DNA of 63,946 bases, filler included, from Sphaeroforma arctica JP610 (GCF_001186125.1; 5 parts of 3 records of this genome joined end to end with filler, not necessarily neighbours in it); one strand, 5' to 3'. Counted from the whole stretch's first letter, positions 24,254-62,109 are shown. Made by a program: numbers and translations. The notes: generated from the letters alone by a model not told the origin.

Positions 24254-26353
24254 AACTGATAATATAGGCATACATGTATTGTATAGATGTACATATAGTT
24301 TTATATATGTTGGTTATATTTTTCTCGCCTTTAGTACACCTCTCGCTTTGCACATATCGCGTAGCGTACATAGTCCCCAGACACGCACCAAATATATGAC
24401 TCTTCTTTATACCATGACCTATAACGGTCATGGCTGAAGACGCGATTCAGTTCATATTTCTTGTGCAGTGCCATCCGATACCATAATTTTGCTGCCTCAA
24501 AAGTTTTGAAACTCACCTATGTCTGAATGCAATTGAGAAGGTATCGGATTTGTGAGGCTCAAGGGGTTTAGCAAGTTATTGTAACATGGGAGAGCCATGC
24601 AGTTTAATTACCAATTTTAGTATCTCCCGATGCTTAAACAGTACGCGAATACGTTCTATCCTGCCGATCTGTGTGCCCTCTGTGATATATCGTAGCCTGA
24701 AGTGCTGTACGGTTTGCTCTTGATTATGAATCGACCCGATGTTTTAGGAGTACACAAACCCTTTTTCTATCCTGCCGATTTGTGTGCTATCCGTATTATG
24801 TACTGTTCAGAATACACTAAGTATATCAATACTACCTCTCATGCATTGTTCCCCTACTAACATCAGAATATGCGTCTTATTCGTCCTATATATTCGTGAG
24901 TATGTTTTTCATAGTCCCAAAAAGCGGTTTTTAAGCAATCTCGTGCACTTTGTACCCAAATCAGGATACTACATCTTCAGAGATGTGAACCATCAGAAGG
25001 ATATCTTCCGATCATCCAATGGCAAAGCGCTCATCTGGGGCAAGAAAGCCACCTACATAGATGCCACATATGTGACAGCCGATGGAAGCACACGCAACAG
25101 GTAAATATGTGTATTTTTGAATATTGTATCGTATATATATATATATATATCATATACATATACATATATATGTATATATATATACGTATATATATATATA
25201 TATATATATATATACTTACGTTACGTTTAGTTATATATATTTATTAGTTTNNNNNNNNNNNNNNNNNNNNTATATATATATATATATATATATACTATAC
25301 TATATATATGTATATATATATACGTATATATATATATATATATATATATATACTTTCAACGGTTTTGTATACATATGTATTATTTTGTGAGGCCATCCTT
25401 GTTGCTTCTTATATATCACTTTTTCCGTCGCCTATCGTTCTTTGTTGATGAACCAAGTCATTATATGATATCTTGAGAAATTCCTATTCGCGACAGACAG
25501 GCGTACCAGTATGCCGGTACCAGAAATAGATTTGTGTCATCATAATATACTAGTCAATGCACACGAATAGGCACTGTAGCTGTTCCACCATTGCCAATCT
25601 ACTATCGTTGTTTGAATTCATCTCACCCGTTTGTCTGCACGCACATTGTCACATGCCTGCGTAACAATCAAAGCATACCCCGCAGCTGCACGGTTTGTGC
25701 ACTTAGATTGACATTGTTTTGCGCTGTATTGCTGACGATTATTAGTAATATATTATGTAATCCGATAGCCCTGGTGCACGCACCATTACTACCGCGGTCC
25801 TTCTACTTCTATCAATACGCGATGTCTACCTACATGGCCACGCCATTGTTCCATGTCTTGTCTGCTGCTGTCCACTAATATCGTCATTTTAATGTCCTAT
25901 AAGTAGCCTGCTACTAACCAGTGGGTGGTGGGGCGTGGCGCGACACTCCAACTACCTAGCTGATCTGCTGATGTCGCTGTGTTTCTGTCTGGTGACGGGC
26001 TACACTCACGCCCTGCCGTACTTCTACATCTGCCAGATGATCTGCCTGCTAGTAGGCCGAATTTACAGGTATGTGTAGTCATAACCATTATTATATATAT
26101 ATTTATATATACCTAATCATTTGTATCCGTATTCACTCAACTGAGAACACTTATAGCATGCGATTTAGCTATAGCTAGCGGGATAGGAGCCAATAGATAT
26201 AGCTATACTGAATCGACCATTTACATACATAGTCACTCGTTTGAGACCGTTCGATGATGCAGGGATGAGGGCCGGTGTAAGGGCAAGTATGGCAAGTTCT
26301 GGGATGAATACTGTGCCCAGGTGCCTTACAGACTGATCCCTGGAATTTGGTAG
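19362..26353 (+). CDS. DHCR7: 7-dehydrocholesterol reductase, ERG4/ERG24 family (10 exons: 19362-19445, 20223-20438, 21178-21290, 21912-22059, 23218-23385, 23596-23850, 23981-24056, 24965-25100, 25907-26068, 26263-26353)
   Basis: [126 protein letters not shown]. Junctions are GT-AG and phase-consistent; exon 1 is less certain. Confidence 0.92.
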
Positions 26354-27973: not shown

Positions 27974-30900
27974 CACAAGGATATGGATGCCCAGGAGGTC
28001 CTGAAGGTTAAGATTGGTGACTGGAATCGGGGTGGTATTTCGGAAAAATTGACCAAGTCAGAGGTGAAGAATATGAAGTGGTGTGCTATGCCATATTTGG
28101 TGTACAAAAGCCTGGCTTTGTTCCGTTGACTGCTGATGACTGGCGGCTGTGTATTAACTATAAGAAGACTAACACGCAGTTTGAGTGTGAGGCGTACCCG
28201 GTACCCACAGAGAGGCAATTTTTGTCCTCAGTCAGGGGGCGCAAGTATAGGACCATTGTTGATCTTGGTCAGGGCTTCTGTCAGCAGAAGTTGAGTAAAG
28301 AGTCGCAGCAGTATACCACTTTTTGGACTCCGTGGGGACCTCACAAGTTCATAGGGATGCCATTTGGGCTGAAGCCGGCCTCGTGGATTATGCAGAAACG
28401 CATGGTGTTGGTTTTTGACGAGGTGCCTAATCATGAGGTGTACATTGATGATATTGGTACAGGGCATGCTGATGGTCGTGAGCATTGGGATGCTCTGGTG
28501 TTACTGGTGGCGGCCTGTCAGAAGTATAACGTGAAATTGTCGTTGGCCAAGTCTAGCTTTGCGTATCACACACAATCGTTTATGGCTCTGGGCCGGATGG
28601 TCGATGAGAATGGTGCGTCCGTCTCTGAGGATCGGTTGGAGGCCATTTTTCGGATGCCTCGGCCAACGACGAAATATTTATTAAAATCATGGTTTCATAC
28701 TCTCACGTTTTGGCTTGAGTATATACCGGACTATGCGCGGATCACAGCACCGTTGTCTGATATGTTGAGAGACGACGTTGTTTTTTCCTGGGGTTTGCTT
28801 CAGCAATCAGCGTTTGATACGGTGTTGAAGGGTGTGGCTGAACGTGCAGTCTTGATTGAAGGCTTGGCGGATTGTTAGGCGGTCGGTGCACGACTTGGTG
28901 GTCTATACTGATCATGAGCCGTTAGCTGCTATGATGCAGAAGGAGCCGCATGAGTTTGACGATTCAGTGCGGGGCAGGCGTATGGGTCGGTATGTTCAGG
29001 GCCTGCGGGACTTTAACTTGGTTTTGAAGCATATTCCGGGTGAAGATAATCCGGTAGCGGACGTGATGTCTCGTTTGGGGTATCCTATTGATCCGATTAT
29101 GCAAGTGGAGTCTCCGCTAATCAAGAAGCGTGGAGTTTTGCAGATCCCTTGGTTACGGTGCCTGACACGGAAGAATACTCGTTGGCACCCAAGTATTTTG
29201 ACAAGGCGTTGTAGAGGGTTGGTCCCTTTGATGTTGAAGGATTTGCGTTGCCGGGCAATAACTTGATGGTGCCATATTACTCGCCCACTTTAGACGGTGG
29301 GGTGTTTGCTTTGGACACTTGGTTCGGGCGGAGTTGGTACATGAACGCTCCGTTCTCCAAGTTGGATGCTGTTGTTCAGCGGGTGAAGGCGGATAGAGCC
29401 ACTGCGACGCTGGTAGTACCGTATTATCCGGAGGCTGCTTGGTTTAAGCAGCTGGTACCATTGTTGGCGGATACGTCAATTGTCATTCCGCCTACGCATG
29501 GTGTGCTCTTGAAGCATGGGCGTGAGGCGATGCCGCCGCCGCCGTTTGTGACATTAATTTGTCATCTTAGTCCTCGTTGTGAGAAGTTCACGTTGGCTGA
29601 GGAGTTTTGGGTGGTGGTGGACGCGCATCGGCCTGTGACCAGTACTGTGGTTGGTGCGTTGACGGTGCGACCGGATGACTTGGAGTCCTGTATGGTGCAG
29701 GATCGCGTGGCTTCGGCAGAGGCTGGTGTAGTTACGAAGCCTGTCCGGTGTGTACGTTACCCCAGGCTAGGAGGTTTTTTCCTACAAACAGTTGAGCATG
29801 TGGTGGGTTCATGTACTTTTATGACGACCACTGTCATGCCTGGGGAGTTGGTGTTGGAGGAGGCCATGAGTCGGGCCGAGCGTGAGTTTGAGGCGCATCA
29901 GATCCGTGCAGTTGCTGTCATGACTCGTGCGCAACGGCTGCGAGCATCCGCTGCTGAGGTGGAGGTGACTGCTAGTGGTGAACCTCCGACTGAGGAGCCG
30001 GCGTTCGTGTTGGCCAGGCCTCAGGAGCAGTTGGCAGCACCTGGAGTGGATACTTCTCCTGGGTTACCGTTTTTTGGTCCACGCACAGAAAGAGAGTTTC
30101 TCGAAGACGTGCGATGTGGGCTGTATGGTATTGGAGTGGGGGGTTCTGTTGTCATGCGTGTTTTGCGTTACACGCATGAGCTGTTCTCATGTCGCTACGG
30201 ATCGCTTAATCCATCTCGTGAAAGAGTTGTGGGGTTGGACTGGCTTGCGGGCGCAGTGTGAGCATGTTAGACGTAGCTGTGGGCCGTGTCAGGAGGTTTC
30301 TCCTATTCTTGGACTGACTCGAGGGCTGCTCCAGCAGCCGGAGCGTCCGGATTCAGTTATGGCTGAGATTGGCATGGATTTTGTTCAGTTCCCAACTACG
30401 AATGCGGGGGGTATGAAGTATGCCCTTTTGGCGGTGGATGCTCTTACTCATATGGTGTTTGTTCGGGTCTTTCCGCCTAGTGTTGCTGCTGGGGACGCTG
30501 TGCGTTTCTTGGAGGAGCAAGTTTTGGAGCTGGGAGTGCCGCAGAGAATTACGATGGTTGCTGACTCTGTGTTCAACACTAATGCTATGGTTAACTTTTG
30601 TGAGGCTAGACAGATTGTGCCGCGTAATGTGTCGATCGATCGTCACCAAGGAAATGGGAGAGCGGAGGTTCTCATCCGTGCGGTGAAGGACTGGTTCAAA
30701 CGTGAGGTGGCGGCTGCTGATGCGGACGTAGGGTCATGGGTATACTCAGTTTATGATGTGGTTCGGACTTACAATGCGACGGTGAACTCGGTTACTGGGT
30801 TTTCCCCGTACTTTCACATGACGGGGCACACATTTCTGCATACTCAGCGGGATCAGCTGCAAGAGAGGGTTCTGGCAATGCTGTTAACAGAGCGTGGTAC

Positions 30901-31103
30901 GGAGGCTATGGTACGTGATGCGGTTGCAGTGCAGCGTGATCTGCGTGCGCAGGAGTCCCAGCGTAGGGCGGCTGACTTGCATCGTGTTGATGTGCCAGCG
31001 TTCGCTGTAGGTGACTGGGTGCGGTATAAAATCCGTGGTGCTGGTCATGCGTTGCTACGCGGTATGATGGTCCGGCCAAAATTGTTGCTGTCCTGCCCAA
31101 TTT
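27974..31103 (+). mobile_element. Ty3/gypsy LTR retrotransposon 'A', pol fragment (RT, partly deleted RNase H, N6-adenine MTase, integrase), decayed
   Basis: RT: WRLCINY, VDLGQGFCQ, MPFGL, VYIDD. RH C-part: VYTDHEPL, HIPGEDNPVADVMSR. IN: H..SH..C.PC, GMDFV, AVDALT, GNGRAE, YNATVNSVTGFSPY, VGDWV..YDGP. Stops and frameshifts present. Cut at 31103 by an LTR. Confidence 0.92.
29170..29580 (+). pseudogene. Dam/DIRS-type N6-adenine DNA methyltransferase domain in element A
   Basis: EYSLAPKYFDKAL*RVGPFDVEGFALPGNN...VFALDTWFGRSWYMNAPFSKLDAVVQRVKADRATATLVVPYYPEAAWF; NAPF at 29344-29355. Confidence 0.8.
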
Positions 31104-31762
31104 TGTAATAAGCCGGGCCTCCATATTAGACTCTATGTATAAACGTACTCTTAAGCAGTACGCAAATTATAAACGTACTCTTAATAGTACGAGGAACTTA
31201 AGTTTCCTAAATGTACTCTTAATAGTACGAGGAACTTAAGTCTCCTAAACGTGCTCTTAATAGCACGAGGAACTTAGGTTTCCTAAAATGGGTTTTAATG
31301 GTTTTATTAATTAAACCTTTTCCATTTAACATATCAGATATTTGGATGAGGCCATTAAAAGGCCTCAGTAAAATACCAAACATAAAAGAGTTAGTCTAGT
31401 TCTATTAATAGAGCTTTATTTACTTTCCAATTTTATTTATGTCTGAATACTTTGGTAGCGAGATGGCTCAACCGAATATAGGTTTCTAGGGACTATTAAC
31501 GTTACCTAGTTGATCCTCTGATAAGCCAACCAGATGTGCCAGTCTGATGAAGGCTAAGTCGATAATTCTTGATAGTGGCAAGCTATTGGTTAAGACAATA
31601 ACTAAAGACGTCAAGAGTATTTTTATTTTATCTCTTTTTTCTAAAGATAGGATTTTATGAGTCTCTCGGATTCGCCCCAGAATAGAGCGACAACGAAACA
31701 CTAAATAAAATCCCTTTCGGTGGAAACGTACTGAGAGGATTATATATAGGCAATGTCTCAGC
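31104..31762 (+). repeat. 5' LTR of element B (3' end in N gap)
   Basis: Colinear with 38306-38992, with substitutions and indels. Confidence 0.9.
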
Positions 31763-31818
31763 TNNNNNNNNNNNNNNNNNNNNGTTAAGAGACAAGCTAG
31801 TAGTCATAAGTTAAGATT

Positions 31819-33996
31819 ATGACCAAGAAAGACAACACTCCTTCTAAGAAGCGTAGAGCTGAAAAGAAGAAGATGGAGAGAGAAGTCGCTAACGCTGCCG
31901 CAGCTATTACTGCTGCGCAAGCAACCGACGCCGCTGCTGATGCATTTAAGCGCACTGTAGCCAAAGCACTTGCCTCTGACAATTATAGTCAAAAGGACAA
32001 TGCTTCAGATAAGGAAATAGCCACTCCGCTTAAGGAGACTACTTCTTCTGACAGAGCCCGAGGGCCAACTATAGCCTCAACTTCAAAACTTGCATTAACG
32101 AAGCCAAAACGTGAGACAAGGGATACGTCGCAAGACGCCCCAACCCATTCTTCTGACGAAAATCAGAAAGGAAAGTCCCCAATTATGAGGGCGTCCTCAA
32201 TTATAGGGGACAAGGACAAATCTCAGAAGGAACCTATTATGGAACCAGAAGAGGAGGCAAGCTCAAGTAGCAAAACCGAATCTACGTCCGAGACTTCTAA
32301 GCCGAAGCACATAAGTAAGTTAATTACTAAATACGCTGATCTTAAGAATCAGTTAGCTACTATTATGAAAGACTTGACTGTCGAGCATGTAGATCAATTA
32401 GAAAGATCAGGAACACATACACAGCGCTTACGCGAGCATGTTTCCCCGGGCATTACTGAAGCCCTACAGAAGTGGACAGAACGTCGACAGGCAATTACGC
32501 CCAAAGACTCAAGCTCGACACCTGAGTCATATGATCCAGAGATACACAGCGTCGATATACCGTACGAGGCATTACTGCCAGAAGAACAGGCTAATCATTC
32601 GCCTGTTCTGACACCTGGTCGTGAGTCACCTGTCCTCAAAGGTATTATAGACCGAGAGGTAAGGAAATATACTACGCCACTTGTACCCAATTGGGAGGAC
32701 AATCGTCGGAAACCAGTTAAGACTGGGTATGTTATTCCGACGCCAAGGGATATTAATCATCCCCGCAGACGTGTGAACGATGTCGAGTTTAATCGCTTCG
32801 ACCGCACGGCTTTACACCAACCCGCAGAGGATTTCCACTCTGACGAGGTGACCGACCTTAATAAATCGGTCGACGACTTTACCAATAAAATGGAAGTCGC
32901 CCATGCTGCGCATCATGCTAATGACGTAGCATACTATGCGAATATTATTGCGATTAAGCAAAAGCGCATAGACCAATTACTTCAGGCCCAACGTGGACAA
33001 GACCACAGGGACAACCAGAAGTACAAAGGACAGATCAGTCGACTTAAGTCGAACTGGAATGCCAACAGCAAGCAGGTCGAGTTTATAAACAACCATGACC
33101 TCGACACGCTAACTTGTACGCTTAATGCGTTTACGGTCATGCTGGAGACGAATGATATCGCTCCCCAGCAATGGATCTCTGCCTTAATGCAGACATTTGA
33201 CCCTACAGGTACCATTTATCTGATCCTGCAGCGACACCAGCATGAGCTAGACACTTGTCGTGACTGGTCAGTTGTGTGTTGGTTGGTCACATCCTTGTTA
33301 AGTAAGGATATGCGTAGCCCTGGGCTGAGTTCAATTTTAAATGAACCAGCCGAGAACACGCCCATTCAGAGTTATATTCTGAAGTTAGACGCTGACCTGA
33401 AACGTCCCGATATAACAAAGGACAAGGCACAGCGATGGTCCGAATTCCTGGTTAGGTACGTGTTCTGTAATAACATAGGGAATAACGACCGTGAGAGTCT
33501 GTACACCGAGTTGCGACGTAAACACGCGACTGAGGCTCGAGACAAAGGACATGAAACAAAGTTTCATCTATCCCGATTTACATGGGAACAGTTTTATGAT
33601 ACTGTATCCACTCTTTTTCCCGCACATCGAGTAACATCGAAGGGAAAAGCGGCTGCTAAGAAGCCGCGGGAGCACCCCGATCACGGATACGTATCCAGGC
33701 AGACCTCAAACAAGAGACCCCAACATACACGTGCTCGCGAATCCACTTTCACAACGCGACTCAATAAACGGGCACGCGCAGGAGCGAAGGACATGGAACC
33801 TCCATTTAAGGAGATTAAGAAATGTGCCGACGCCCAGTGTGGGTATGACATGTACCAATTACCCCCTAACGGTTATTGGAATGGTAGACATGCATCCACC
33901 TGTACACACTTTCTTACTAAGTGTGGCAAGTGTGAGAAGACCAATGGTTATCACACTAAGTCTTGTGACCGAAAGCCCAACATTAAGTTGGAGTGA
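31819..33996 (+). CDS. Gag-like protein of element B (725 aa, intact)
   Basis: Lies between the LTR and the protease. Long disordered N-terminus. C-terminal Cys/His clusters CADAQC..H..C and CGKCEKTNGYHTKSC. Confidence 0.85.
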   Translation: MTKKDNTPSKKRRAEKKKMEREVANAAAAITAAQATDAAADAFKRTVAKALASDNYSQKDNASDKEIATPLKETTSSDRARGPTIASTSKLALTKPKRETRDTSQDAPTHSSDENQKGKSPIMRASSIIGDKDKSQKEPIMEPEEEASSSSKTESTSETSKPKHISKLITKYADLKNQLATIMKDLTVEHVDQLERSGTHTQRLREHVSPGITEALQKWTERRQAITPKDSSSTPESYDPEIHSVDIPYEALLPEEQANHSPVLTPGRESPVLKGIIDREVRKYTTPLVPNWEDNRRKPVKTGYVIPTPRDINHPRRRVNDVEFNRFDRTALHQPAEDFHSDEVTDLNKSVDDFTNKMEVAHAAHHANDVAYYANIIAIKQKRIDQLLQAQRGQDHRDNQKYKGQISRLKSNWNANSKQVEFINNHDLDTLTCTLNAFTVMLETNDIAPQQWISALMQTFDPTGTIYLILQRHQHELDTCRDWSVVCWLVTSLLSKDMRSPGLSSILNEPAENTPIQSYILKLDADLKRPDITKDKAQRWSEFLVRYVFCNNIGNNDRESLYTELRRKHATEARDKGHETKFHLSRFTWEQFYDTVSTLFPAHRVTSKGKAAAKKPREHPDHGYVSRQTSNKRPQHTRARESTFTTRLNKRARAGAKDMEPPFKEIKKCADAQCGYDMYQLPPNGYWNGRHASTCTHFLTKCGKCEKTNGYHTKSCDRKPNIKLE

Positions 33997-36900
33997 CGGT
34001 ACTACCAGGTACAATCATTACACAGACAATACAACGACTCTTTAGATGAGCGTGTAATATTCCCTGTACATTGCAATGGAAATAAATCCTTGCGTTGATT
34101 GATCCTGGTTCAGAAATTTCATGTATATCCGATCGCTTTGTATTAATGAAAGATATCGAAAGGAGAACACAAACAACTCATCTCATTTTAACTGATGATA
34201 AAACTGCTACGTGTGATACCATCGCCACAGATGTTAAAATCTCCCTGGCCGATGGTAGGAGTATCACTACTCAAGCTGTGATAGTTAAGATGTCACAGAA
34301 GTACGACATTATAGTCGGAATGAGTGATTTACTCACTCTAGGTATAATCGTAACTGGTCTACCAATTAACATAGATCCATTAAAGGATCAACCAGACGAT
34401 ATCTGTCTGAACCCATATAAGCCCCCGTCAGACACAGTCAAGGCATTAATACCTGACTTTGCGAATAAAATCATGGATCTGATTCTAGCTAATATGAAGA
34501 TGAAGATCACAGATTGGGCAAAATTACGTTTCAACGACGGGCATGTCAGCCTTGACTTAACCAAGGTAGACTGTAAACAGTTAAAGTGTCCCTCAAGGAA
34601 CTATATATCCTGGAGACACGAGGCCGTGGGAAAAGAACAAGTTGAGAAATGGCTAGCAGATGGAGTGATATAAATTAACTATCAACAGACGCCAGTTAAC
34701 TTGGCACTGCTAGCCGTAGACCAACATAACTCTGACGGATCGTTTAAGAAAGTCAGAGTATGTTTAGATATGAGTCCAATACATAAATTATTACTTACTC
34801 ATAGCTTCCACTTACCTCGTATTAACGAGCTACTGCGAAGGATGGAAGGTGCTACATTGTTTACAACTATAGACCTTACACAAGGATACCATCAAATGCA
34901 GGTATATGAACCCCACCGTAAATGCTTTAGCTTTACGTGGAAAGGCAAACAATACCGGTTCAGAGGTGCACCATTCGGGTTACACTCTTTACCAGCATTC
35001 TTCCAACAAGTAATAGAAGAAATGTTTGCAGACATGCCTAACGTGCAAGTCTATATAGATGACATAGTCATCTTTTCTAAGACTACAGGCGAACACGCCG
35101 CATTAGTCAAACGAGTCCTTAAGAGACTCAATGAGCAAAACTTCAAGATTAACGAGAAGAAATGCCACTTCGCAATGAGAGAAATACAGCTCTTAGGCTA
35201 CCATATATCTTGGGAAGGTATTAAGATCGACCCCGGTAAGGTAGAACACCTGTTAGATTGGCGAACACCAACTACAGGAAGAGATGTTAACAGCATGTGT
35301 GGGTTTGTAAACTTCTTTTCAGATGGAGTACCACACTTAGCTGACTACCTTAAACCTTTTGGACACTTAAGATGTCATAAAGGCAAACTAGGAGACTTGT
35401 GGACTAAAGAGTGTGTTGACGCATTTAAAGCGTTCAAACACGCAGTCCAACAAGCCCCAGTTGTACAAGGGCCAGTCGATGGCGTGCCGTTTGAAATAGC
35501 AACGGACGCATCAGACTTAGCCTTAGGAGGAGTATTATATCAGGTTATAGATAACAAACCTAGATATATACTATTCTTTAGTCGAGCAATGAATGCTTCA
35601 CAGTTGAATTATCCAACTGTTAAACAAGCGCAATTAGCCATAGTGGCAGCTCTAACACACTTCCGATATTAATTATACGGAACAGCATTTACGTTGATGT
35701 GTGATCAGAAATCTCTTCAATATATGAAAGAGATAAAACCCGACTCACAATTACTGAGTCGTTGGCATGATACAATATCAAAGTTTCATTCTGATATAAA
35801 ACATCTGCCAGGAATACATAACCATTTACCGGATATGTTATCACGCTTCGTACCGGACTTTAATAAATCCGTACGTGAGTTACTAGCCACTGACTGGAAG
35901 TGTAATCCCAGGTGGTTTGAACTGGCTCAAAAGATATTTGGGCCACATACCATAGATATGTTTGCTGCACATCATAATGCACAACTATCGAATTACAGGA
36001 CTTTACATCATCCTTTGGGAGACGCCTTTCAAATAGACCTCTCCAAACATAATGCTGGGTTAATCCATCATGGCAGTTAATTGCCCAGTTATTAAATTAT
36101 GTTCATATACATAAAGCTACCATCACGTTGTGTTGCCCATTACGGAGGAAAGATCCATGGTTCAATAAATTAATAAGCATGATACATTGCGATCCAATAT
36201 ATTTAGATAGGGAAGTAGATACTTTCCTATATCAGGGAACCCGAGCCGTCCAGAAGACGCCCTGGAGACATACTATAATATGTCGTATAGGTCCCATTGG
36301 AACAACCAAATGGACCCCTTCTGAGACCTTCCTTAACAAGGTCAAAGAATCAGAGATTCCACTCTCTACCCAATTGAACGTTAAGCAGTTCAAAGCCAAC
36401 ACAGCACTTGAAGTCTGTGCACAAGAAATACAATCTACTAATGACACTACAGTTAAGAAGCGTCAGTCACTAGCTATGACTCTGTTTAATATCATAAAGT
36501 CCAAGCCCGAAGTCTTTCAAACCCTATTTTTAAAGGTATTAATAAAAGATAATCCTAAAGCATATACACATATAATGCGACTATTAAATATATCAGGTGT
36601 ATCAAACGCACACGAGCGCACTTATGACACTCATGCGAACGAAGGACAGGAGTCTGAAAGCACTACAGACTTAGAGACCACGCAAGTGGATTCTCAACAC
36701 CCTACCTTTATTCTGGAAGAGCAGAATGATGAAAACCCATTCTTGCTTGGCTGACGCAAACCCATAAGCTGAAGCACCAGAACGTAGTAGACGCACTTAA
36801 AGATGCTAAGCGAAATGGGATCGCGCACCCAAAGCTGGCAACTTTAGTTGATAGAGTATATCAGTCATGTACAGACTGTGATCTCAATCAGATCAAGCGC

Positions 36901-38264
36901 TATGGGTTCGCACCGCTTAAAAGAGTGTGACTGAAGATGTTCCATGGCGCAGGGTCATCATTGATCTGATTGACCTGCCTACGTCCGAGCACACAGGCGA
37001 CAGTTACGTATGCCACTTCTTTGATGTGGCATCACGGTTTAACTTGCTCTATCAATTAAAGGATAAGAATACGCAGACCGTGGCAGAACTATGTTGCCAA
37101 GTCTTTGCTGACCACGGGTGGCCGGGTATTTTGTGCACTGATAACGGTAGTGAGTTCTGCGATGACGTAATGGAATCGCTAGTACTCGTATCAGGCATAT
37201 GCCATAAGAGAGGTGTGCCATATAAGTCGCAAACGCAAGGTGCGAATGAAACGCGCCATAGAAGAATTAAGTTCTTCTTGCGTACTGCATTAACGGATGA
37301 TGCAGATGATTGGCAGTACCACCTTAAGTGGGTACAAACACCGATGAACGAGTGTGCTGATCCGGTTAAAGGAACCACACCTACTCACTATTTTCGTGGC
37401 AGATATAGTGAGTTGTAAATCCTCTTTAACAAGGACGAACCTGATCACCATGAGTTACCATGGTTATAGAAGGTCCAACGTATTTATAACGTTGTATATG
37501 CTTGCTTGCGAGAAATACGCAATTTAGCCTTATTAAAAAGGCAAAAGCGATGTAACACTACCAAGAAGATAGCAGAGTATCAGGTTGGTGACAGAGTTAA
37601 CATCCGTCAACGTAATTCCGATACTACTGTATTAACATCTAAATGGATAGGTCCATATATAATCTCTTTAGCAGACACTACAAGTGGAACGTACTAGGTA
37701 AATAACCCCGATGGTTCTAGTGCGCTTAATATAGGCACAACTCGTATTCCGACTACAGAGATTATACTCGCAAGAAAACATGACTCTAATGCCCCTCTTG
37801 ATCGTTCTGAATTTAAAGACATTATATGGAGAACGGATAAGGGAGTCTATACATACTATCGTACACGTTTTATAGACAGTACAATAGCTGAGTTGACTTC
37901 AGATGCTTTCGATAACCAAGACTATTTAAAAGCCTTTAATTGAAAATGGCGTAAACGCCTGCATAAGTCACAAGCTGAAAAAGATAGCATGTTTCCATCG
38001 ACTGAAGGCACGGAAGTTAAAACTTATCCGCCTACAGAATTTATCCCGAGCTTTAATGCTCATCCTTCATATGTGCTTAAGACACTGAAGCGTAAGAAAC
38101 GTCCAGTCGACCACCACGGACCTACTAGACCTAAGCTCAAAAGTTACATGGTAACCGAGAATGCTTTACTTCTCCGCCTGGGAAACATTAACTATATGTT
38201 ATGCTACTTAATGTTTTCGACCCATTTCCTTTCTCGCTTTTTGACCCATAATCAGCCTGAGTAA
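33997..38264 (+). pseudogene. pol of element B (PR about 34050-34350, RT about 34700-35250, RH about 35480-35850, MTase about 35890-36330, IN about 36760-37700, chromo-like about 37800-37945)
   Basis: Domain motifs occur in order across ORFs 34095, 34701, 35694, 36128, 36927 and 37506, separated by stops and frameshifts. Confidence 0.9.
35890..36330 (+). pseudogene. Dam/DIRS-type N6-adenine DNA methyltransferase domain in element B
   Basis: TDWKCNPRWFELAQKIFGPHTIDMFAAHHNAQL...GDAFQIDL..(frameshift)WVNPSWQLIAQLLNYV..ITLCCPLRRKDPWF; NPSW at 36062-36073. Confidence 0.85.
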
Positions 38265-38305
38265 GCAACTTGCTTCTCATGGGTCTCAAAGCTGGGTGGG
38301 GGCTG

Positions 38306-39192
38306 TGTAATAAGCCTGGCCTCCACATTAGACTCTATGTATAAACGTACTCTTAAGCAGTACGTAAATTATAAACGTACTCTTAATAGTACGAGGAATT
38401 TTAAGTTTCCTAAATGTACTCTTAATAGCACGAGGAACTTAAGTTTCCTAAATGGTTTTTAATGGGTTTTATTAATTAGTACCTTTTCCATTTTACATAT
38501 CAGATATTTGGACGAGGCCATTAAAAGGCCTCAGTAATATACCAAACATAAGAGTTGGTCTAGTTCTATCAATAGAACTATATTTACTTTCCAACTTTAT
38601 TTATACTGAATACTTCGGTAGCGAGATGGCTCAACATAATATAGGTTTCTAGGGACTATTAACGTTACCTAGTTGATCCTCCGAACAGCCAACCAGATGT
38701 GCCGGTCTGATGAAGACAAAGTCGGTAATTCTTGATAGTGGCAAGTTATTGGTTGAAACAATAACTAAGGATATATTCTATTAGATTATCTTATCCCTCG
38801 GGATGTCCATCCCCATAGGACATCAAGAGTATTTCTTCTTCTTCTTTTTTTCTAAAGATAGGATTTTATGAGTCTCTCGGATTCGCCCAAATGAAACATA
38901 CCATAGTTTCTAATAGAGCGACAACGAAACACTAAATAAAATCCCTTCGGCGGAAACAGTACTGAGAGGACTATATATAGGCAATGTCTCAGCCTCACAA
39001 TACCTCATAATATATAGGCAATGTCTCAGCCTCACAATACCTCAGAGTAATGCTGTTTTCACGAGGCATACCTGACTTTACTAAAAGTCTTATTTCGTTT
39101 GTTTACTTTGATATTTACACGATACTTAGAATTTACCTACGCGTTTATTTATTCTATGGCATTAGTATCCCCTTAATAGACCGAATCTTACA
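38306..39192 (+). repeat. 3' LTR of element B (about 887 bp)
   Basis: TGTAA...TTACA termini, preceded by a PPT. Confidence 0.85.
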
Positions 39193-39829
39193 TATATNNN
39201 NNNNNNNNNNNNNNNNNNNNNNNNNNNNNNNNNNNNNNNNNTTAATTAATTAANNNNNNNNNNNNNNNNNNNNNNNNNNNNNNNNNNNNNNNNNNNNCTT
39301 GATCTGGTTCTTTTCACAATCAGTACAGCGTCGGTATACTTCACGTATGGGTTCTTTCAGCACCTGGGTGATCAAGCCCTGCACGAATAGCCATCTTATA
39401 AGTATGCTCATATGCTCGATGAGTTAAATTATGTATTACTTTAACTCTACTCTCGAGTTCTTCTAAGTCAGTCAGATTCTGTGTAACGCTGGCTGGATGA
39501 ACCATAGTCCCGTTAGATAGGGCAACTTCAGTATCAGGAGGGGTAGATTCCTGAGATACGTAGTTAACAACATTAGATTGTTGAAGTATCTTCTTCAGTT
39601 GTTTCACACCTCTTGGGTGTTCTTTAAGCAGTGCTTTAAGTAGTTGAGTGCGAGCTTCAGGTTCTCTTAGAGCTTTGAGTCTTTGATCCATGGCCTTAGC
39701 TAGTTCCATGTTTTTACGATCTAATGCCGCCTCAATCGGCATTACCTCGACTGCATTCTTGTTGGATGCATGTGTTGTACGAGTCTTGAGCTTTTGTTCA
39801 AACTCCTTAGACTACTCTAGTTTAGCTAA

Positions 39830-40270
39830 GAACTCGGTTGAGGGTTTCCACTTAGCGGTACCTGCAGGACCGATGCGACAAACGACGGTGTGTTTCCAAG
39901 GTGTCATCTTAATAGAATAGGTTCCCTGATACAAGAACGTGTCGGTTTCACGGTCGACATAGATAGGCTCGTCTTGTATCATATTAATTAAATCACGTAT
40001 CCATGGGTCGGAGCTACGTAAGGGACAACACATCGTAATGGTAGATTTAGTAATATTAACATAATTTAACAACTGTGCGATAAGTTGCCAAGGGGGGTAA
40101 GCCCACCCATTATGCTTTGATAAGTCAAGTTGAAAGGCATCACCTTTAGGATGAATCAACGACCTATAATCAGAAACCTGTTTGTTATGTTCTGCGGCGA
40201 ACATATCAATAGTAAATGGACCCCATCTTGATTGAGCGAGGTTAAACCATTTCTTATTAAGCATCCAATC
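39830..40270 (-). pseudogene. Dam/DIRS-type N6-adenine DNA methyltransferase domain in element C (uninterrupted frame)
   Basis: DWMLNKKWFNLAQSRWGPFTIDMFAAEHNKQV..GDAFQLDLSKHNGWAYPPWQLIAQLLNYVNITKSTITMCCPLRSSDPW; YPPW at 40088-40099. Confidence 0.87.
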
Positions 40271-41946
40271 GGTTGCTAATAACTCTTTAACTGTTTTCTG
40301 GTAGGTATAATATTATTTATTTCAAAAATAGCTTCTGGTAGTGAGGGATAAGTCGAGAGAGCATGTCAGGAAGATGATTATGTATTCCTGGTATGTGTGT
40401 AATGTTAAAAGCGAATTTAGCAATAATGACATGCCAGCGGCTCACCAACTGTGAATCAGGGTTCATGTCCTTTAAATATGTTAAAGACTTTTGATCACAG
40501 GCGACAGTGAAGTAACTTCCATAAAGGTAGTCTTTAAACTGTCTTAGCGCAGTAGCTATAGCAAGGAGCTCTTGTTTAACGGTAGGGTAATTCCGTTGAC
40601 TCTTATTATAACTCTTGCTAAAAAATTGCATGTAGCGCGGCTTACCATTTATCGTTTGGTATAGCACTCCACCTACCGCTCAATCTGAAGCGTCGGTTGC
40701 TACTTGGAATGGGACGCCATCCACAGGGTATTGCATGATGGGTGCGTCCATTACTTTACTTTTAACTAGCTTAAATGCATCATCACATTCATTAGTCCAG
40801 AGCTTTCCCAAAGGTCCTTTGTACAGCCGTAGGTGACTGAAAGGCTTTAAGTAATGAGAAAGATGAGGTACTGAATCCGAGAAGAAGTTAACAACCCCAC
40901 ACACAGAGTTCACATCTCTGCCAGCAATCGGTGTTGATAAATCCAACAGAATTTGTTTCTTGCCAGGATCAATTTCTACCCCTGCTGCACATACCTTGCA
41001 ACCAAGTAAGTGTATAGTATCTTTAGCAAAAGAACACTTGTCCTCGTTAATCTTAAGTTTGGCATGGTTTAGTCGCTTTATGACTTCTTTAACGAGTTTA
41101 GCGTGTTCATGTGCTGTCCTTGTAAATATAACTATATCATCTAAATATACTTATACGTTATCCGACAGGTCCGCAAATAGTTCCATCATAACTTGTTGGA
41201 AGAAAGAAGGTAACATGTGTAAGCCTTCAGGTGCACCTTTAAACTAGTACTTCTTACCTTGCCAATTAAAGGAAAAGTATTTCCTATGCGGCTCATATAT
41301 TTGTAATTGATGGAATGCAGCTTTTAAGTCTACCTTGGAAAAGATAGTCGTACCTTCCATTTTGCGTAGTATCTCGCTTATCTTTGGTAAGGGAAGACTA
41401 TGTTGCGGAATTAGTTTGTTGATTGGTGACAGGTCTAGTACTACTCTTGTTTTACTAAACGTTCCATCAGATCTATATTGGTCGACCGCTAAAAGAGCTA
41501 AGTTAACTGGGGTTGCATCATAATTGATTTCAATTAGACCCTGTTTTAACCAATCTTCAATGTGGGTTTTGACAACGTCTTTGTGTCTCCAACTCTAGTA
41601 GTTATGTGAAGCCCTAAAACGTACCCGTTAGAGAACTTAAACATACACCAGTCAGTAATTAAGTCCATAATTGTATCGGTAAAGTGCGGAATCATATCCT
41701 TTGCTTCACCTTCCGGAGATTTAGATATCTTTAACATGTTATCATCTGACTGATCTTTATTTGGGTCTAGCCCATTAGGCAGACCAGTGAGAGTTATACC
41801 TAAACCGAGAAGATCAGTCATACCTATAATTAAATCGTATTTCTGAGACATGTCAGTAACGATTAGGTGAGTCTTTACTTCTCTTCTATCTGACAACAAT
41901 ATGTGTGCATAGTCAATGGCTTCTTCGCAAGTGGTAACTTTGCCAT

Positions 41947-42126
41947 TGTAGTAAACACATCAAAATACGATACTAAAACCTACTGAGTCCTCCTGAGGCT
42001 CAGTGCGGTGTATTTATTCTTATATTTGATTGTCTACTTGGTCTACAAATAATTCACCTCGTGTGAATTAATTGTAAACTAATTCTAACTCCACACTGAT
42101 AGTGGTTTAAGGGGACTTTTACTACA
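41947..42126. mobile_element. 180-bp solo-LTR-like insertion in the protease of element C
   Basis: TGTAGTAAA...TTTACTACA termini with 4-bp TSD CCAT (41943-41946, 42127-42130). Removing it restores the frame ILGNG|KVTTCEEA. Confidence 0.85.
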
Positions 42127-43573
42127 CCATTTCCCAAGATTAAATTAGTTGTTTCGTTATGGATAGCCATATCTATAGCGTGGGCTACTCGGCGTGAGAT
42201 AGCAGAGACTTCAGCCCCTGGATCAAAAAGTGCTATAACTTTTTTTCCATTTACATAAACAGTTTGATTTATACGTTCATCTCCTTTGGTATAGATTTTA
42301 TTGAACTTTTTCTCAAAATCTTGCTCTAGTGCACACATATGGAACTATCAGTGCTTAACTTGGACGTCCGGTATGTCCTTGCAATCATCTTTGTGCCCTG
42401 CAAGTAGTACACTCTTTCATATAGTGTCCAAAGTTTGGCTTGCCTGGTGCACACTTATCAGAGTCGTGTTTACCATTCTACTTGCCATCACGTTTAGTGA
42501 GGTTGTAACCACACTTCTTGCAAGGTGCTCTCTTCTTCCTTTTACCCTTTAGTTCAGTAGAAGTAGAGCCTTTACCACCTCCAGCAGTAGTGCGAGGTTT
42601 CTCTATATCGCGGTACGCTTAGCGGGCTGGGTAAAACTCAAGGTACTAAGTACTCTAGTAGATGGGTTGGTATGCTTTTGAACTATCTTCTCGATGACAG
42701 ACCAAGTCATAGATCGCAAATCACCATAGGCGATAATATCATCATTGACCTTCTTAAAAAGGTTAGCCCCCAGAGTCTCCATCGTCTGACAAATTAATAA
42801 ATATTCGCCAGTATAGGTACGACCTCCCATCCAAGTGTTCATAAGTGTCATATGAGCTAGAGCACCTCGAATAGTAGTATCGTTCGCAAAGGACTTGCGA
42901 GACTCTAGAAGTTCACGGTCACGTGCATCTTAAAAGAAGGCGTTAAGTATATTCTCACGCAACTGGCGCCAGATAGGGCTTTCCAGTTGGGCTCATGGGC
43001 CTTCAAGATAGGTTTCCATTCCTCTGACTCACAGAAACGAATAAAGACATTCATCATCTGCTTATCCTTAAGGCTGGCAGACTCCTTAAGTTGGTCAAAG
43101 GGCTTCGGTGTCTCCACTGTACTCTCATTAGTAGAGAAATCGACCTCAGCCTTCGCGTTACCTAGCTGCTTTATAAAGCTTGGTTCGAAGCGTTCACGAG
43201 GCTCACGCTCAGTGCTACGAGCTGCTAGTGCCAAGATGGAGTCTATCTTCTTTCTCTTGTTATCGATTAAATAGCGAATATTATCCGCTTTCTTATCGTC
43301 AAGGTCTGAGTCATTCAATAGACGGTCCTCAAGGACTTGCATACCAGAACGTAATAGCCTGAGACGATGTTGTCTGATTCTCACTTCCTCGTCTTCAGAG
43401 CTAGAGTGGGTACTCTTTAGTGAGATACTGGTATAACGATTACCAACGTCGTGATTACCAGGGTTAAATGGTAAATGAGGATCGATGTTATGAGGGTGGT
43501 AAGCCTCATCGATTTCCGTACGATCATAGCCTCTGACAGGGTTAGGTTTGTCAAGAGGATGGTCGATTGTAGC

Positions 43574-43672
43574 TTCCGAGCTATAGAGATTAAATATTGA
43601 GGTTTTACCCACTTCACCAGCGGTAACTGGCTCAATGGTAAAACCTCAATATTTAATCTCTATAGTTCGGAA
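43574..43672. repeat. 36-bp inverted repeat (fold-back) at the junction of elements C and E
   Basis: 43574-43609 and 43637-43672 are reverse complements with one mismatch. Confidence 0.9.
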
Positions 43673-57700: not shown

Positions 57701-60344
57701 ATCATGTTCATGTACAGGATGTTACCATCACGCTGTGTTGTTCCTTAAGACGTTCAGATAAAGTGGCTCAACAAATGATTTCTATACTTCGATGCGAGCC
57801 AACCTATGTGGATAGAGAGGTAGATACTTTCCTCTACCAGAGTACCCGTGCAGTTTAAAAGAAGCCTTGGGCCCCAGTTGGAACAACTGTGTAGGCGCCA
57901 TCTGCAACTTTCAAAAGAAAGGTTAAAAAATTCAAGATTCCACTATTGACACCTTGGTCTGAAGATGAAATCAAGACAAAATAGGCACCTACAATGTGTT
58001 TAATATTGAGATACGAGCTGACTACACAGAATCGATGACGAGCGCATTACTAGTGATGGAAAACTACAAGAAGATTCGTTCGGACAGAACAACTAGCTAC
58101 AAAGCTGATATTGGGCTTCTTAAGCAACTGATGAACGACTTCCCAGATGTATAGGAGTACGTTTCCCAGCTAATGGACAAAAAAAATATTAGTCGTATGC
58201 ATATCTTTGAGTCTTCACGCGAAGTTGGACTAAAAGAGACTTGCAGTTAAGCTGATGCTGCAATGGAATCCTCGCCTTCTGATTTCGGTGTTTTAGAATC
58301 AATCGAGGTACCCATTTTGAAATGGTTTAAATATAATCATGCTCTTGAATAAATGGATACTGCGAAGGTCATTTTGTTTTTTTGCAAAAGATACGGGATT
58401 ATACACTCGCATCTTAAAAAGTTTATATCTCATGTGTATCACGAATGCAATGACTGTGACGCAAAGTTAACCGGATTATGCGCTACGAATACGCACCTAT
58501 GCGAATCTTATCGGAAGACAAGCCGTGGCACCGTGTTATCATTGATTCGGTTAAGCACAATGTCCGAACACAAGTATGTCTGTCACATGTTTGATGTTGC
58601 TTCACGACATAACCTGTTATATTCTCTGAAAGATATATGTTTCGCAAATTTTAGCTGGCCAGCCATATTGTGCACTGACAACGGTAGTGAGTTTACAGGA
58701 GATGCCATGACGAAACTGTTACTCGTTGCAGGCACATGGCACAAAATGGATGTGCTTACAAACTTCATACGCAAGGTGCAAACGAGAAGCTTATGCGAGG
58801 AGCGTTACTTGATGATGATGACATGTAGCCATATCCGACTAACTGGGTACGAACACAAGCGAGCGAAGTACTGGATTCTGTCACTGGTACAACGCCCGCT
58901 CGCTATTTCAGAAGGCGTTGTAGTGAATTCAAAGTAAATTTCAACAAGAAGTTTGAGGATGATCACGTGTCACCGTGTTCTAAGAAGATGCGTAGAACTA
59001 GATACATAGTCTTTCCTTGTTTGAGAGAGATGAATTTGAAAAATGAACAGAAGCGATGGAACAATACAAAGAAAATAGTCGATTTAGAGATCAGGGATAT
59101 GGTTAACATTGTGGCTCGCAATTCCGACACGGCTGTGCTTACTACTAGGTATATTGGATCGTTCATGATTTCAGTGGCCGATAAAAAAAAGCGGACCGTA
59201 TGAGTTCAATAACGTTGACAGGTGCCTTATTATCGGCCTACATGCGCTCCGACGACTAAAATCGTGAGGCTACTCATCTCATGTCCTATGAGTATAAAAA
59301 GATTCTCGGAAAGTACAAAGATGACAACATTACATACTACACGACGAAATTTGCAGATGGAGCACAATACGATCCATCACCGTCAGCATTTTGTATTAAA
59401 AGCCTTCTTGAGAAGTTTCGTAAATGCCTACACAAAAATAAGGCTGACACTAAAGTGATCTTACCTAAAAACAAATATTTTGTGTAGTCAAGGTATATAC
59501 TCATGCATCATTCATTCCAACTTTCAAAGATCATGTTATGTATGACCATCCTGTCTGCCACCGAGAACCACAAGAAGCTAATCCCAAACGTATCAGAGTA
59601 ACTGAGAAATTTAAATGTCTAAGAATACTTTGTCTGAGGAAGTACAATGCTAAAAGACATTGAGGCTATTATCTAATTGAATCTCGTTTTCGCTTATATA
59701 ATTGATGTGACCTTTTTGAGGCTATGTGATTAGAACCACATATAAGCCAGCATTGCAACCTTCAATTTGAAGGGGGAGGGGGGAGAGGCTGTGTAAAAAT
59801 AGCGTGTTCCTGATAGAAGAATCTATTGTGAAATAGAACATAACGAGTCCTCCTGGCCAGTCAACTAGATCTACCTGTCTATGCCTTAAAGGGGACGGAT
59901 AACTAGGTAATAAAAGTGACGGGGTTCTAGGTGCGGTGGAAATATTGCACGAGCTTGGTGTTCTGACTTTGAGTTTTGATTTTTCTAAAATGTATTTAAA
60001 ATTGGTTTATTGATAATTATCATTGAATTGTTTCGAGGCATTAATACGACCAATGAAACGAATCCAATTTTAGATGTGGACACCAGATAAACCTAGACCG
60101 AATTAGTGAATGTCCACGGCAGAACTATATAGACAAAAGTCTCAATCTAAAATCTCCTGATCTTTAGCTCACTACCGAGGGCTGAAGCTAAACTTGATTT
60201 ATTTTCGCAATTTATCGTATGTCCTTTAACTTTACTTTTAGTACGCTAAATTCAACCTGGTTAAGCCAACTTCACATATGCGAGTATATCTATACTCAAG
60301 AATTGTGTATTATATAAAATAGAGTACCAGTAATGTCATCACAA
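54770..60344 (+). mobile_element. Highly decayed Ty3/gypsy element 'D' (B lineage) with MTase, IN, chromo-like domain, PPT and 3' LTR (boundaries approximate)
   Basis: LALLAVDQFDS, FHLPRINEILRRIE, GAPFG, VATD, PDMLSRFVP, ANPPW (57664-57678), CHMFDVASR, LCTDNGSEF, RNSDT..YIGSF. PPT GAAGGGGGAGGGGGGAGAGG at about 59769-59788, then TGTAAAA at 59792. Confidence 0.85.
57540..57900 (+). pseudogene. N6-adenine MTase domain remnant in element D
   Basis: TEWKENPIWVKIAGNIYGPHTTNIFVA ... RANPPWLLMTQLLNHVHVQDVTITLCC; NPPW intact at 57667-57678. Confidence 0.8.
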
Positions 60345-60975: not shown

Positions 60976-62107
60976 CCTCTTTAGATGTATACTTACGTAT
61001 ACCTACAAATACACTCGGGAGTAGTCTGATGTAATGTTATACAGCCACTCTGTACTGTAATAAGCTCTGAATCGCAGTCTATACCTAAGGAGAGAAATGT
61101 CTTAACTCCTGATGCGCAATTGCATATCTATCTTTAGTCGCTTGGTAGTTCCAATTCCAACGGCGTGTCGCGTCATTGATTTTGATAGTCTTTCTTTGTA
61201 TCGCGATGACCAGAATTCAACCCTGGATAAAACAAAGAGCTTAAATTTGTCCTCTTGTTTCTTATGTAGGCGTTTACGCCACTTCTTGTTATTTCTTATT
61301 CAATTAATCTGCATTTTCAAAATCGGCAGGCATGAGGTTGTACACTTCATTGTAGTAGAACTATGTCCAATAGTATGTAATTTCATTAATGGATTTAATA
61401 CCCAAGATTTTCTTGGACTCGTCTATACGTGCAACAGAGTTGTATCGGATCGCTTGATATCCTGGATTATCCCATAATAGGAGCGCTTGGTCCATCAACA
61501 TTATTCACTTTCAAAGTTTCAGTTTTCTCGTCGTGGGCGGAAATCACATACAGTCCTACAAATTAGGAATAGAGCACCCCTGTATCAGAATTACGCTGTT
61601 TATTATTCACAATAACACCTTTCTTAAAGAAAAATTGCTTCTTTTTGCTTATAGACCTTCGTTCTTGAGCTTTTAAAAGTTCAACGTTTCTCTCTTGAGG
61701 TAGGATACATGACCCTCTTTAGATTCTACTATCTTGTATACTTACGTATACCTACATAATATACTCGGGAGTAGTATGATTTACCATTATACTGCCACTC
61801 TGTACTGTAATATGCTCTGAATCGCAGTCTATACCTAAGGAGAGAAATGTCTTAACTCCTGATGCGCAATTGCATATCTATCTTTAGTCGCTTGATAGTT
61901 CCAGTTCCAACAGCGTGTCGCGTCATTGATTCTGGTAGTCTTTCTTTGTATCGCGATGACCAGAATTAAACCTTGGATAAAACAAAGAGCTTTTATATAT
62001 CCTCCTGATTCTTATGTAGACGTTTACGCCACTTCTATTTATTTTTTATTCAATTAATCTGGATTTCAAAATCGGCAGGCATGAGATTGTACACTTCATC
62101 GTAGTAA
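60976..62107 (-). mobile_element. 3' fragments of another B-lineage copy (IN C-terminus and tail), partly duplicated
   Basis: Minus strand encodes QRNSDTGVL and KWRKRLHK as in B. The segment at about 60985-61355 is repeated at about 61735-62107. Confidence 0.7.
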
Positions 62108-62109
62108 AA

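What the first reader, a model, noticed from the sequence alone, without database searches (positions are those of the whole stretch)
29170..57900. Ty3/gypsy LTR retrotransposons with a DDE integrase that carry an N6-adenine DNA methyltransferase between RNase H and integrase
Seen: elements A (29170-29580), B (35890-36330), C (40270-39830) and D (57540-57900) each have a domain of about 140 aa right after the RNase H end (ADxxSR/PDMLSR) and before the HHCC integrase. It follows the pattern dW.L...F......GP..[ID/VE].FA...N...DAF...W.[N/Y]PP[W/F]..+..++.........++P.....W, with motif IV variants NAPF, NPSW, YPPW and NPPW. Established: this pattern matches the phage Dam-like (Pfam Dam, PF05869-type) MT domain of DIRS1-type tyrosine-recombinase retrotransposons, while canonical gypsy pol is PR-RT-RH-IN with no such domain. 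Here the elements have direct TG..CA LTRs and a PPT (B, D), a protease (B, C) and a DDE integrase. Inference: this is an LTR retrotransposon group that may adenine-methylate its own cDNA or insertion site, to protect it or mimic host 6mA-marked active chromatin. I cannot confirm it is undescribed, and every copy here is decayed.
Basis: partly seen in the sequence, partly recalled or inferred. Interest (0 to 1): 0.92.

Follow-up and report, generated by a model that had tools for sequence, protein, structure and literature searches.

The report
Known methylase-carrying gypsy retrotransposons, ichthyosporean
These are four broken copies of gypsy-type jumping genes in a single-celled relative of animals that carry an adenine-methyltransferase-fold domain between RNase H and integrase; the design is real and kept by selection, it was described in this same host group in a 2026 preprint, and the domain likely methylates the element's own nucleic acid, which is untested.

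Summary
Observation confirmed, headline already in print. Four decayed elements carry a ~140-aa Dam-like domain between RNase H and integrase. A natural unbroken 1,400-aa relative shows PR-RT-RH-MT-IN in one frame. RTs group with LTR elements, not DIRS. The host is Sphaeroforma-like, and B and C fall in an RT clade with Abeoforma proteins: this is the 'Ichthyosporean DAM-LTR lineage' of Fernandez-Moreno et al. (bioRxiv, May 2026), who also report 6mA enrichment and a negative E. coli assay. This scan found the architecture before on other genomes. Corrections: paired LTRs exist only for B; C's YPPW is private decay (public copies have Asn); C's integrase core lies beyond an assembly gap. Three additions: (1) the domain is under purifying selection, and its closest solved fold is the RNA cap methylase PCIF1 (Z 10.6) ahead of Dam (8.1), so an RNA substrate is open; (2) the lineage has a degenerate C-terminal chromodomain, which the preprint says it lacks; (3) element A is a separate, divergent family (NAPF, EGFA) whose domain resembles a Pirum protein. 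Activity is untested.

The parts
28021..28878 (+). Element A reverse transcriptase (5' part of the element lost at an assembly gap)
   Evidence: Pfam RVT_1 E 8.9e-13; long branch on the LTR side of the RT tree
28856..29075 (+). Element A RNase H end (ADVMSR)
   Evidence: Pfam RT_RNaseH E 0.092; translation
29164..29574 (+). Element A methyltransferase-fold domain, EGFA...N and NAPF, one in-frame stop
   Evidence: profile 115 bits; Pfam Dam E 0.044; PHROG 111 E 0.016; 88-90% identical to S. arctica SARC_04494 and SARC_12758
29969..31103 (+). Element A integrase (H2C2 30185-30301, rve 30374-30625), cut by the insertion of B
   Evidence: Pfam H2C2 E 0.0024, rve E 0.0017; even G+T-rich make-up from RT to integrase
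31104..31763 (+). Element B 5' LTR (end hidden by a 20-base N run)
31810..33996 (+). Element B gag-like ORF, 728 aa stop to stop, Cys/His-rich end
   Evidence: no Pfam match; gag by position (inferred)
34086..35786 (+). Element B protease, RT, RNase H (one frame, two stops)
   Evidence: Pfam RVP_2 1.3e-5, RVT_1 5e-27, RT_RNaseH_2 2.8e-24
35889..36292 (+). Element B methyltransferase-fold domain, DMFAA and NPSW, frameshift just before motif IV
36763..37700 (+). Element B integrase (H2C2, rve, SH3-like tail), broken
   Evidence: Pfam rve E 4.3e-9; tblastn with P0001
37773..37940 (+). Element B degenerate chromodomain-like tail
   Evidence: 52% identical to the P0001 tail; model pLDDT 81, best Foldseek rows are chromodomains, TM 0.72, E 0.11
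38294..38999 (+). Element B polypurine tract (38294-38303) and 3' LTR (38306-38999, TG..CA)
40332..43645 (-). Element C gag-like pieces, protease, RT, RNase H
   Evidence: Pfam RVT_1 and RT_RNaseH; 77-90% identical to P0001
39869..40276 (-). Element C methyltransferase-fold domain, open frame, DMFAA and YPPW (Tyr is private to this copy)
   Evidence: Pfam Dam E 8.5e-6; model pLDDT 94.5
39298..39811 (-). Element C linker and start of the integrase zinc finger, cut by an assembly gap
56015..57500 (+). Element D protease end, RT and RNase H remnants
   Evidence: tblastn with P0001 E 6e-43 and 1.7e-30
57543..57873 (+). Element D methyltransferase-fold remnant with NPPW
   Evidence: profile iE 4.2e-14 and 0.0075 in two frames
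58116..59469 (+). Element D integrase remnant and chromodomain-like tail (59284-59433)
   Evidence: Pfam rve E 2.6e-4
59769..59791 (+). Element D polypurine tract and TG start of a likely 3' LTR; no 5' copy found

Best explanation
These are decayed Ty3/gypsy LTR retrotransposons of the published ichthyosporean DAM-LTR kind, whose Pol carries an N6-adenine methyltransferase-fold domain between RNase H and integrase that likely methylates the element's own nucleic acid during replication. Shown here: the domain order in one reading frame, the LTR-type RT, the Rossmann fold, the intact DxFA...N, DAF and NPPW motifs in the B/C family, and purifying selection on the domain. Inferred: Pol is packaged in the particle and cut by the element's protease; the small domain has no target-recognition part of its own, so it would be brought to its substrate by RT/RNase H or integrase; it would place 6mA on the RNA-DNA intermediate or cDNA, and host AMT1 would keep the mark after integration so that the new copy sits in transcription-permissive chromatin (the preprint's model). 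Identity about 0.95; this mechanism about 0.4.
For: P0001, a natural 1,400-aa protein 84% identical to C's domain over its full length: protease 27-112, RT 259-408, RNase H 473-601, Dam 638-703, H2C2 914-959, rve 974-1071; best solved relative Ty3 Gag-Pol, E 6e-63. RT trees: all three window RTs tested lie on the LTR side, against DIRS-like rows (100 SH-aLRT; 100/100); B and C sit in a 13-row clade (100/99) with P0006 and P0010, both Abeoforma whisleri. Motif IV is NPPW or NPPF in 16 of 21 LTR-type relatives. In 4 of 4 public runs at least 99% of depth has Asn where C has Tyr. Of the 25 variant rows listed for C's domain, the 17 that differ among copies or runs are 12 synonymous, against 20% synonymous sites (binomial p 9e-6), while the 8 private to the window copy are 7 non-synonymous (Fisher p 0.011). 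The domain is as conserved as RT and RNase H: P0001 against Abeoforma P0010, MT 43%, RT 47%, RH 41%, IN 34%. Model pLDDT 94.5, matches are SAM-dependent methyltransferases. The preprint reports more 6mA-marked and more expressed copies among DAM-LTRs than other LTRs in S. arctica and A. whisleri.
Against: The preprint's expression of DIRS, DAM-LTR and adintovirus domains in dam-minus E. coli raised no 6mA. Iyer et al. 2016 judged DIRS-type domains likely inactive (PMC4738411 section 9). 5 of 21 LTR-type relatives depart from NPP[WF], among them the unbroken P0001 itself (CPPW). The best structural match is an RNA enzyme, PCIF1, not Dam. The published 6mA link is a correlation; more transcription could bring host 6mA. 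My selection counts come from contigs, ignore transition bias and may include related samples.
Confidence: 0.42

Rival explanations
1. The domain is a non-catalytic or weakly catalytic binder: it holds SAM, adenine, the template RNA or a host factor and is kept for that structural job.
For: Negative E. coli assay; Iyer et al. propose inactive binding or PCIF1 mimicry; family A keeps the domain under selection (25 of 37 listed variants synonymous against 24% expected) with NAPF and Glu in motif I; earlier scan notes report degenerate motifs in other genomes (unchecked).
Against: Motif I Asp is kept in 80 of 83 and the motif IV Asn in 65 of 83 other domains; the high-depth C family keeps Asn.
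Confidence: 0.28
2. The domain is an RNA adenine methyltransferase like PCIF1/CAPAM and would mark the element's own transcript (cap-adjacent or internal adenosine), which helps stability, translation or packaging.
For: Top Foldseek match human PCIF1, E 8e-4, probability 1.0; VIA-align Z 10.6, rmsd 2.9, 136 aligned, ahead of rRNA dimethylases (8.8) and EcoDam and T4Dam (8.1, 106-109 aligned); weak sequence match to zebrafish PCIF1, E 0.37; Iyer et al. place DIRS domains in the PCIF1 clade; it would explain a negative DNA assay. The preprint's main text has 0 mentions of PCIF1.
Against: The nearest profile matches are phage DNA methylases (PF05869, PHROG 111), and my searches showed no solved structure of that family, so PCIF1 may be first only for lack of a closer one. 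The 142-aa domain spans PCIF1 residues 236-651 with only 136 aligned, so it lacks PCIF1's inserted domain; P0001 shows no WW domain.
Confidence: 0.22
3. The domain is a neutral passenger, or each case is a nested DIRS piece inside a gypsy element.
For: All four window copies are broken; Pfam scores are under the curated cut-off.
Against: Same position in one open frame in P0001, P0005, P0010, P0015, P0019 and others; synonymous excess; RT is not DIRS-like; no tyrosine recombinase among 19 window ORFs scanned.
Confidence: 0.03

Closest known systems
Ichthyosporean DAM-LTR lineage (Fernandez-Moreno et al., bioRxiv 10.64898/2026.05.21.726589; whole main text read, supplements closed)
   Same: Ty3/gypsy organisation with a PF05869-type domain; same host group (Sphaeroforma, Abeoforma, Pirum); B and C share an RT clade with Abeoforma proteins; same 6mA hypothesis.
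   Different: The preprint says the lineage lacks chromodomains; a degenerate one is present. Family A lies outside the B/C RT clade and its S. arctica relatives get no Pfam Dam match, so that screen may have missed it. The preprint does not discuss PCIF1 in its main text.
DIRS1-type tyrosine-recombinase retrotransposons with an MT domain (Iyer et al. 2016, PMC4738411, section 9 and passages read)
   Same: Same methyltransferase domain directly after RT-RNase H; many of the 150 best profile hits have the RT-RH-MT(end) layout that I took as DIRS-like.
   Different: Here a protease, an H2C2/DDE integrase, direct LTRs and a purine tract; RT in a different clade; no tyrosine recombinase seen.
Chlorophyte DAM-chromovirus-like clade and EpiLTRs (same preprint)
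   Same: RT-RH-DAM-IN order with a C-terminal chromodomain (seen here in P0016, P0027, P0031, P0092).
   Different: Their chromodomains pass Pfam's cut-off; no cytosine methyltransferase is seen in the window elements or P0001.
PCIF1/CAPAM cap-specific adenosine N6-methyltransferase (PDB 6irw, 6irx)
   Same: Closest solved fold.
   Different: 12-15% identity; no WW domain and no inserted domain; substrate unknown here.
Gypsy-DNMT3 elements of charophytes (de Mendoza et al. 2018, PMC5890265; search listing and start of abstract only, plus its mention in the preprint)
   Same: A gypsy element that has taken up a DNA methyltransferase domain.
   Different: Cytosine C5 enzyme, unrelated family.

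Membership tests
Ty3/gypsy LTR retrotransposon | Pol order PR-RT-RH-IN | tested here: met
   B and P0001; A lacks its 5' part at a gap
Ty3/gypsy LTR retrotransposon | H2C2 plus DDE (rve) integrase | tested here: met
   rve in A, B, D and P0001; H2C2 in A and weakly P0001; C cut by a gap
Ty3/gypsy LTR retrotransposon | RT groups with LTR elements, not DIRS | tested here: met
   A, B, C; best solved match of P0001 is Ty3. D's RT was too broken and was left out. DIRS-like rows were labelled by layout, not from a curated set
Ty3/gypsy LTR retrotransposon | Direct TG..CA LTRs and polypurine tract | tested here: met
   B: both LTRs and tract; D: tract and TG only; A and C: not seen
Ty3/gypsy LTR retrotransposon | Target-site duplication and primer-binding site | tested here: inconclusive
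   No duplication recognised around B; the primer site falls in an N run
DIRS1-type retrotransposon | Tyrosine recombinase instead of DDE integrase | tested here: not met
   rve present; no recombinase family in 19 window ORFs or P0001
DIRS1-type retrotransposon | RT in the DIRS clade | tested here: not met
Ichthyosporean DAM-LTR lineage | Dam (PF05869) domain in a gypsy Pol of an ichthyosporean host | tested here: met
   88-91% identity to S. arctica proteins
Ichthyosporean DAM-LTR lineage | B and C group with Abeoforma DAM-LTR proteins | tested here: met
   RT clade 100/99 with P0006 and P0010; MT tree weaker, 84/68. The preprint's own alignments were not available
Ichthyosporean DAM-LTR lineage | A groups with the same clade | tested here: inconclusive
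   RT outside the clade on a long branch, AU p 0.049; MT joins Pirum P0030 at 93/95 with a long-branch warning
Ichthyosporean DAM-LTR lineage | No chromodomain (as the preprint states) | tested here: not met
   Clade tail profile matches HP1 chromodomain E 1.8e-9; 7 of 11 tails match Pfam Chromo at E up to 1, best 3.6e-5. This corrects a descriptive remark; it does not remove membership
N6-adenine amino-methyltransferase | Rossmann-type SAM-dependent fold | tested here: met
N6-adenine amino-methyltransferase | Motif I acid and motif IV (N/D)PP(Y/F/W) | tested here: met
   B/C family: DxFA and NPPW; family A has E and NAPF, so only partly
N6-adenine amino-methyltransferase | Methyl transfer to adenine, and its substrate | not testable with these tools
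   Published E. coli test negative
PCIF1/CAPAM | WW domain and large inserted domain around the catalytic core | tested here: not met
   No WW in P0001; 136 residues aligned over PCIF1 236-651

The most novel reading that the evidence does not exclude
The retrotransposon 'Dam' domain is an active PCIF1-like enzyme that methylates the element's own RNA rather than DNA, and Sphaeroforma carries two separate lineages of such elements (B/C/D with a vestigial chromodomain, and the divergent family A), the second not yet described.
Probability: 0.15. Interest if true: 0.7.

Novelty: already known. Interest (0 to 1): 0.27.

Why it matters
What retrotransposon adenine-methyltransferase domains do has been open since they were seen in DIRS elements. 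The architecture itself is no longer news, but the C family has very deep cover in public runs, keeps the catalytic motif and is under selection in a culturable host with a published 6mA map, so it is a good source of a natural domain to assay. The PCIF1 likeness names a substrate class (RNA, cap-adjacent adenosine) that the one published assay did not test. The vestigial chromodomain suggests that the ichthyosporean lineage came from a chromodomain-bearing DAM-LTR, which bears on how many independent captures there were.

Tried and rejected
No whole genome is held for this window, so no genome-wide copy survey. The protein atlas did not answer. No RNA holder was listed on record, so nothing is said on expression. 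No unbroken relative of family A was found: the MT search gave two short S. arctica proteins, and the RT search gave 6 gypsy Pols at 29-30% identity, none with the MT domain; A's RH-MT-IN linkage therefore rests on this one copy and its even base make-up. A chromodomain profile from the 7 non-Sphaeroforma tails alone scored P0001 (E 1.2e-4) and P0005 (E 0.046) but not the window's B or D tails; the link for B goes through P0001 and the predicted fold, whose Foldseek E-values are 0.11 and higher and whose alignment included chromodomain-like rows. The second structure search for that tail could not be queued. A 5' LTR for D was sought and not found. The repeat pair 43899/53265 is not C's LTR pair (see noticed). 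Summed contig depth was not used as copy number. In my MT tree all 21 LTR-type domains fall on one side with one DIRS-like row (99/98), which would suggest fewer captures than the preprint's four or more; I do not claim this, as the rows were picked by a profile of these same elements, 149 columns were kept and the bootstrap had not settled. Look-up by sequence among earlier scan findings gave nothing.
Full report
1. Is it there? Yes. Six-frame translation shows a ~140-aa domain after the RNase H end in four elements. Pfam Dam (PF05869) matches C at E 8.5e-6, B at 0.013 and A at 0.044, all under the curated cut-off; PHROG 111 matches 3 of 6 queries weakly. A profile of 88 related domains finds the four places and nothing else above iE 0.13 in the window. 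RT, RNase H, protease and rve matches flank it in gypsy order. B has two LTRs, 586 of 624 aligned bases identical, and a purine tract; D has a tract and a TG but no second LTR copy. B is nested in the end of A's integrase. N gaps with a stop-codon spacer cut off A's start and C's integrase.

2. What is it? The longer-protein search with C's domain gave 2 hits among 96 candidates: P0001, a natural 1,400-aa protein with protease, RT, RNase H, Dam, H2C2 and rve in one frame, and a Sphaeroforma arctica protein at 91%. A's domain matched two S. arctica proteins at 88-90%. The host is thus Sphaeroforma or very near it (inference). P0001's best solved relative is Ty3 Gag-Pol. A profile search of 1.84 billion proteins gave 3,952 hits at E up to 0.001; I scanned 34 of the best 150 with Pfam, chosen for length, and found both RT-RH-Dam-rve polyproteins and RT-RH-Dam(end) proteins that I labelled DIRS-like. 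In an RT tree of 47 rows (25 of 49 DIRS-like rows used) the three window RTs lie on the LTR side with support 100. A careful tree of 34 rows puts B and C in a 13-row clade (100/99) that includes two Abeoforma whisleri proteins. D was left out of the trees; its DNA is about 70% like B's over short stretches.

3. Is the domain kept by selection? Contigs of 4 public runs laid on C's domain gave 25 variant rows. Eight are shared by all runs and so are private to the window copy; 7 of these change the residue, including the Tyr of YPPW, where at least 99% of depth has Asn. The other 17 differ among copies or runs, and 12 are silent against 20% silent sites (p 9e-6; contrast Fisher p 0.011). For A the table showed 40 rows with 181 more cut; 37 of the 40 lie in the domain and 25 are silent against 24%; none of the rows shown touches NAPF, and SARC_12758 also has NAPF. 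These counts ignore transition bias and come from contigs. Across families the domain is as conserved as RT and RNase H. Motif I Asp is kept in 80 of 83 other domains and motif IV Asn in 65 of 83; 16 of 21 LTR-type relatives have NPPW or NPPF, but P0001 has CPPW.

4. Fold. The model of C's domain has pLDDT 94.5. Foldseek ranks human and zebrafish PCIF1/CAPAM first (E 8e-4). VIA-align gives PCIF1 Z 10.6 (rmsd 2.9, 136 aligned), rRNA dimethylases up to 8.8, EcoDam and T4Dam 8.1. Iyer et al. 2016 (PMC4738411, section 9 read) place DIRS domains in the PCIF1 clade and call them likely inactive. A search for PCIF1 with DIRS and methyltransferase returned 2 papers, only that one relevant.

5. Is it known? 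Yes. A search for gypsy, adenine methyltransferase, retrotransposon and integrase returned the preprint by Fernandez-Moreno et al. (whole main text read; supplements closed). It claims the first DAM domains in non-DIRS LTR elements and defines an ichthyosporean lineage in Pirum, Abeoforma and S. arctica. It reports more 6mA and more expression on these elements, a negative E. coli assay, and the model that DAM marks RNA-DNA intermediates which host AMT1 then maintains. Earlier notes of this scan list 23 findings with the same words in at least 3 genomes; I had found the preprint before that look-up.

6. What this window adds. (a) A degenerate chromodomain follows the integrase. An alignment of 11 tails from the B/C clade matches the HP1 chromodomain at E 1.8e-9, 7 of 11 members match Pfam Chromo weakly, and the model of B's tail is nearest to chromodomains. 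The Sphaeroforma tails are the most eroded: a profile without them scores P0001 at 1.2e-4 but misses the window copies, and they lack the conserved Trp residues, so histone binding is doubtful (inference from recalled HP1 cage residues). The preprint says that this lineage lacks chromodomains; a search on Sphaeroforma, retrotransposon, gypsy and chromodomain showed no other paper on it among 15 of 337 listed. (b) Element A is a second family: RT at most 31% identical to any row, outside the B/C clade (AU p 0.049, long branch); its domain shares two rare changes (Tyr for Trp, Glu for Asp) with a Pirum gemmata protein. (c) The PCIF1 likeness, which the preprint's main text does not mention.

7. 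Mechanism. Shown: architecture, fold, motifs, selection. Inferred: the domain is made as part of Pol, packaged, and acts on the element's own nucleic acid. I put about 0.42 on DNA or hybrid methylation that seeds host 6mA, 0.28 on binding without useful catalysis, 0.22 on RNA methylation, 0.03 on a passenger.

8. Verdict. Real, well supported, already described in this host group. Interest 0.27, carried by the testable RNA-substrate rival and the two small corrections.

Noticed in passing
window 43899-44316 and 53265-53581: Two ~92-95% identical TG..CA repeats. Read on the minus strand the lower copy is preceded by a purine-rich run and the pair is flanked by ATAT on both outer sides, like a 9.7-kb LTR element with a 4-base duplication, but an assembly gap lies between and no RT was found inside.
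   Followed up: partly
window 60986-62113: Two 380-base direct repeats (92%) around a 280-base integrase remnant on the minus strand (61703-61425, E 6e-9 to P0001): a small deleted LTR element.
   Followed up: partly
window 53700-54614 (-): Gag-like remnant of another element (coiled stretch, later a Cys/His knuckle by eye).
   Followed up: no
window 3353-5630 (-): Host gene or genes with several Kazal-like repeats (recalled motif, not scanned) and a likely C-terminal membrane segment.
   Followed up: no
window 14623-18583 (-): Spliced protein-kinase-like gene (HADLKPDN and YRAPE motifs by eye).
   Followed up: no
window 23470-25104: Exons that resemble a sterol reductase (recalled likeness, not tested).
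   Followed up: no
proteins P0061 and P0077: Polyproteins with an Exo/endo/phosphatase domain, then Dam, then RT, RNase H and H2C2: the methyltransferase lies before RT, behind an endonuclease-family domain. RT falls on the LTR side on a long branch.
   Followed up: partly
window 27874, 39198, 47790, 62574: 100-base N gaps with a TTAATTAATTAA spacer, likely artificial contig joins; they produce the longest 'inverted repeats'.
   Followed up: yes
window 38960-39043: The last ~35 bases of B's 3' LTR are duplicated in tandem, which blurs the LTR end and any target-site duplication.
   Followed up: partly
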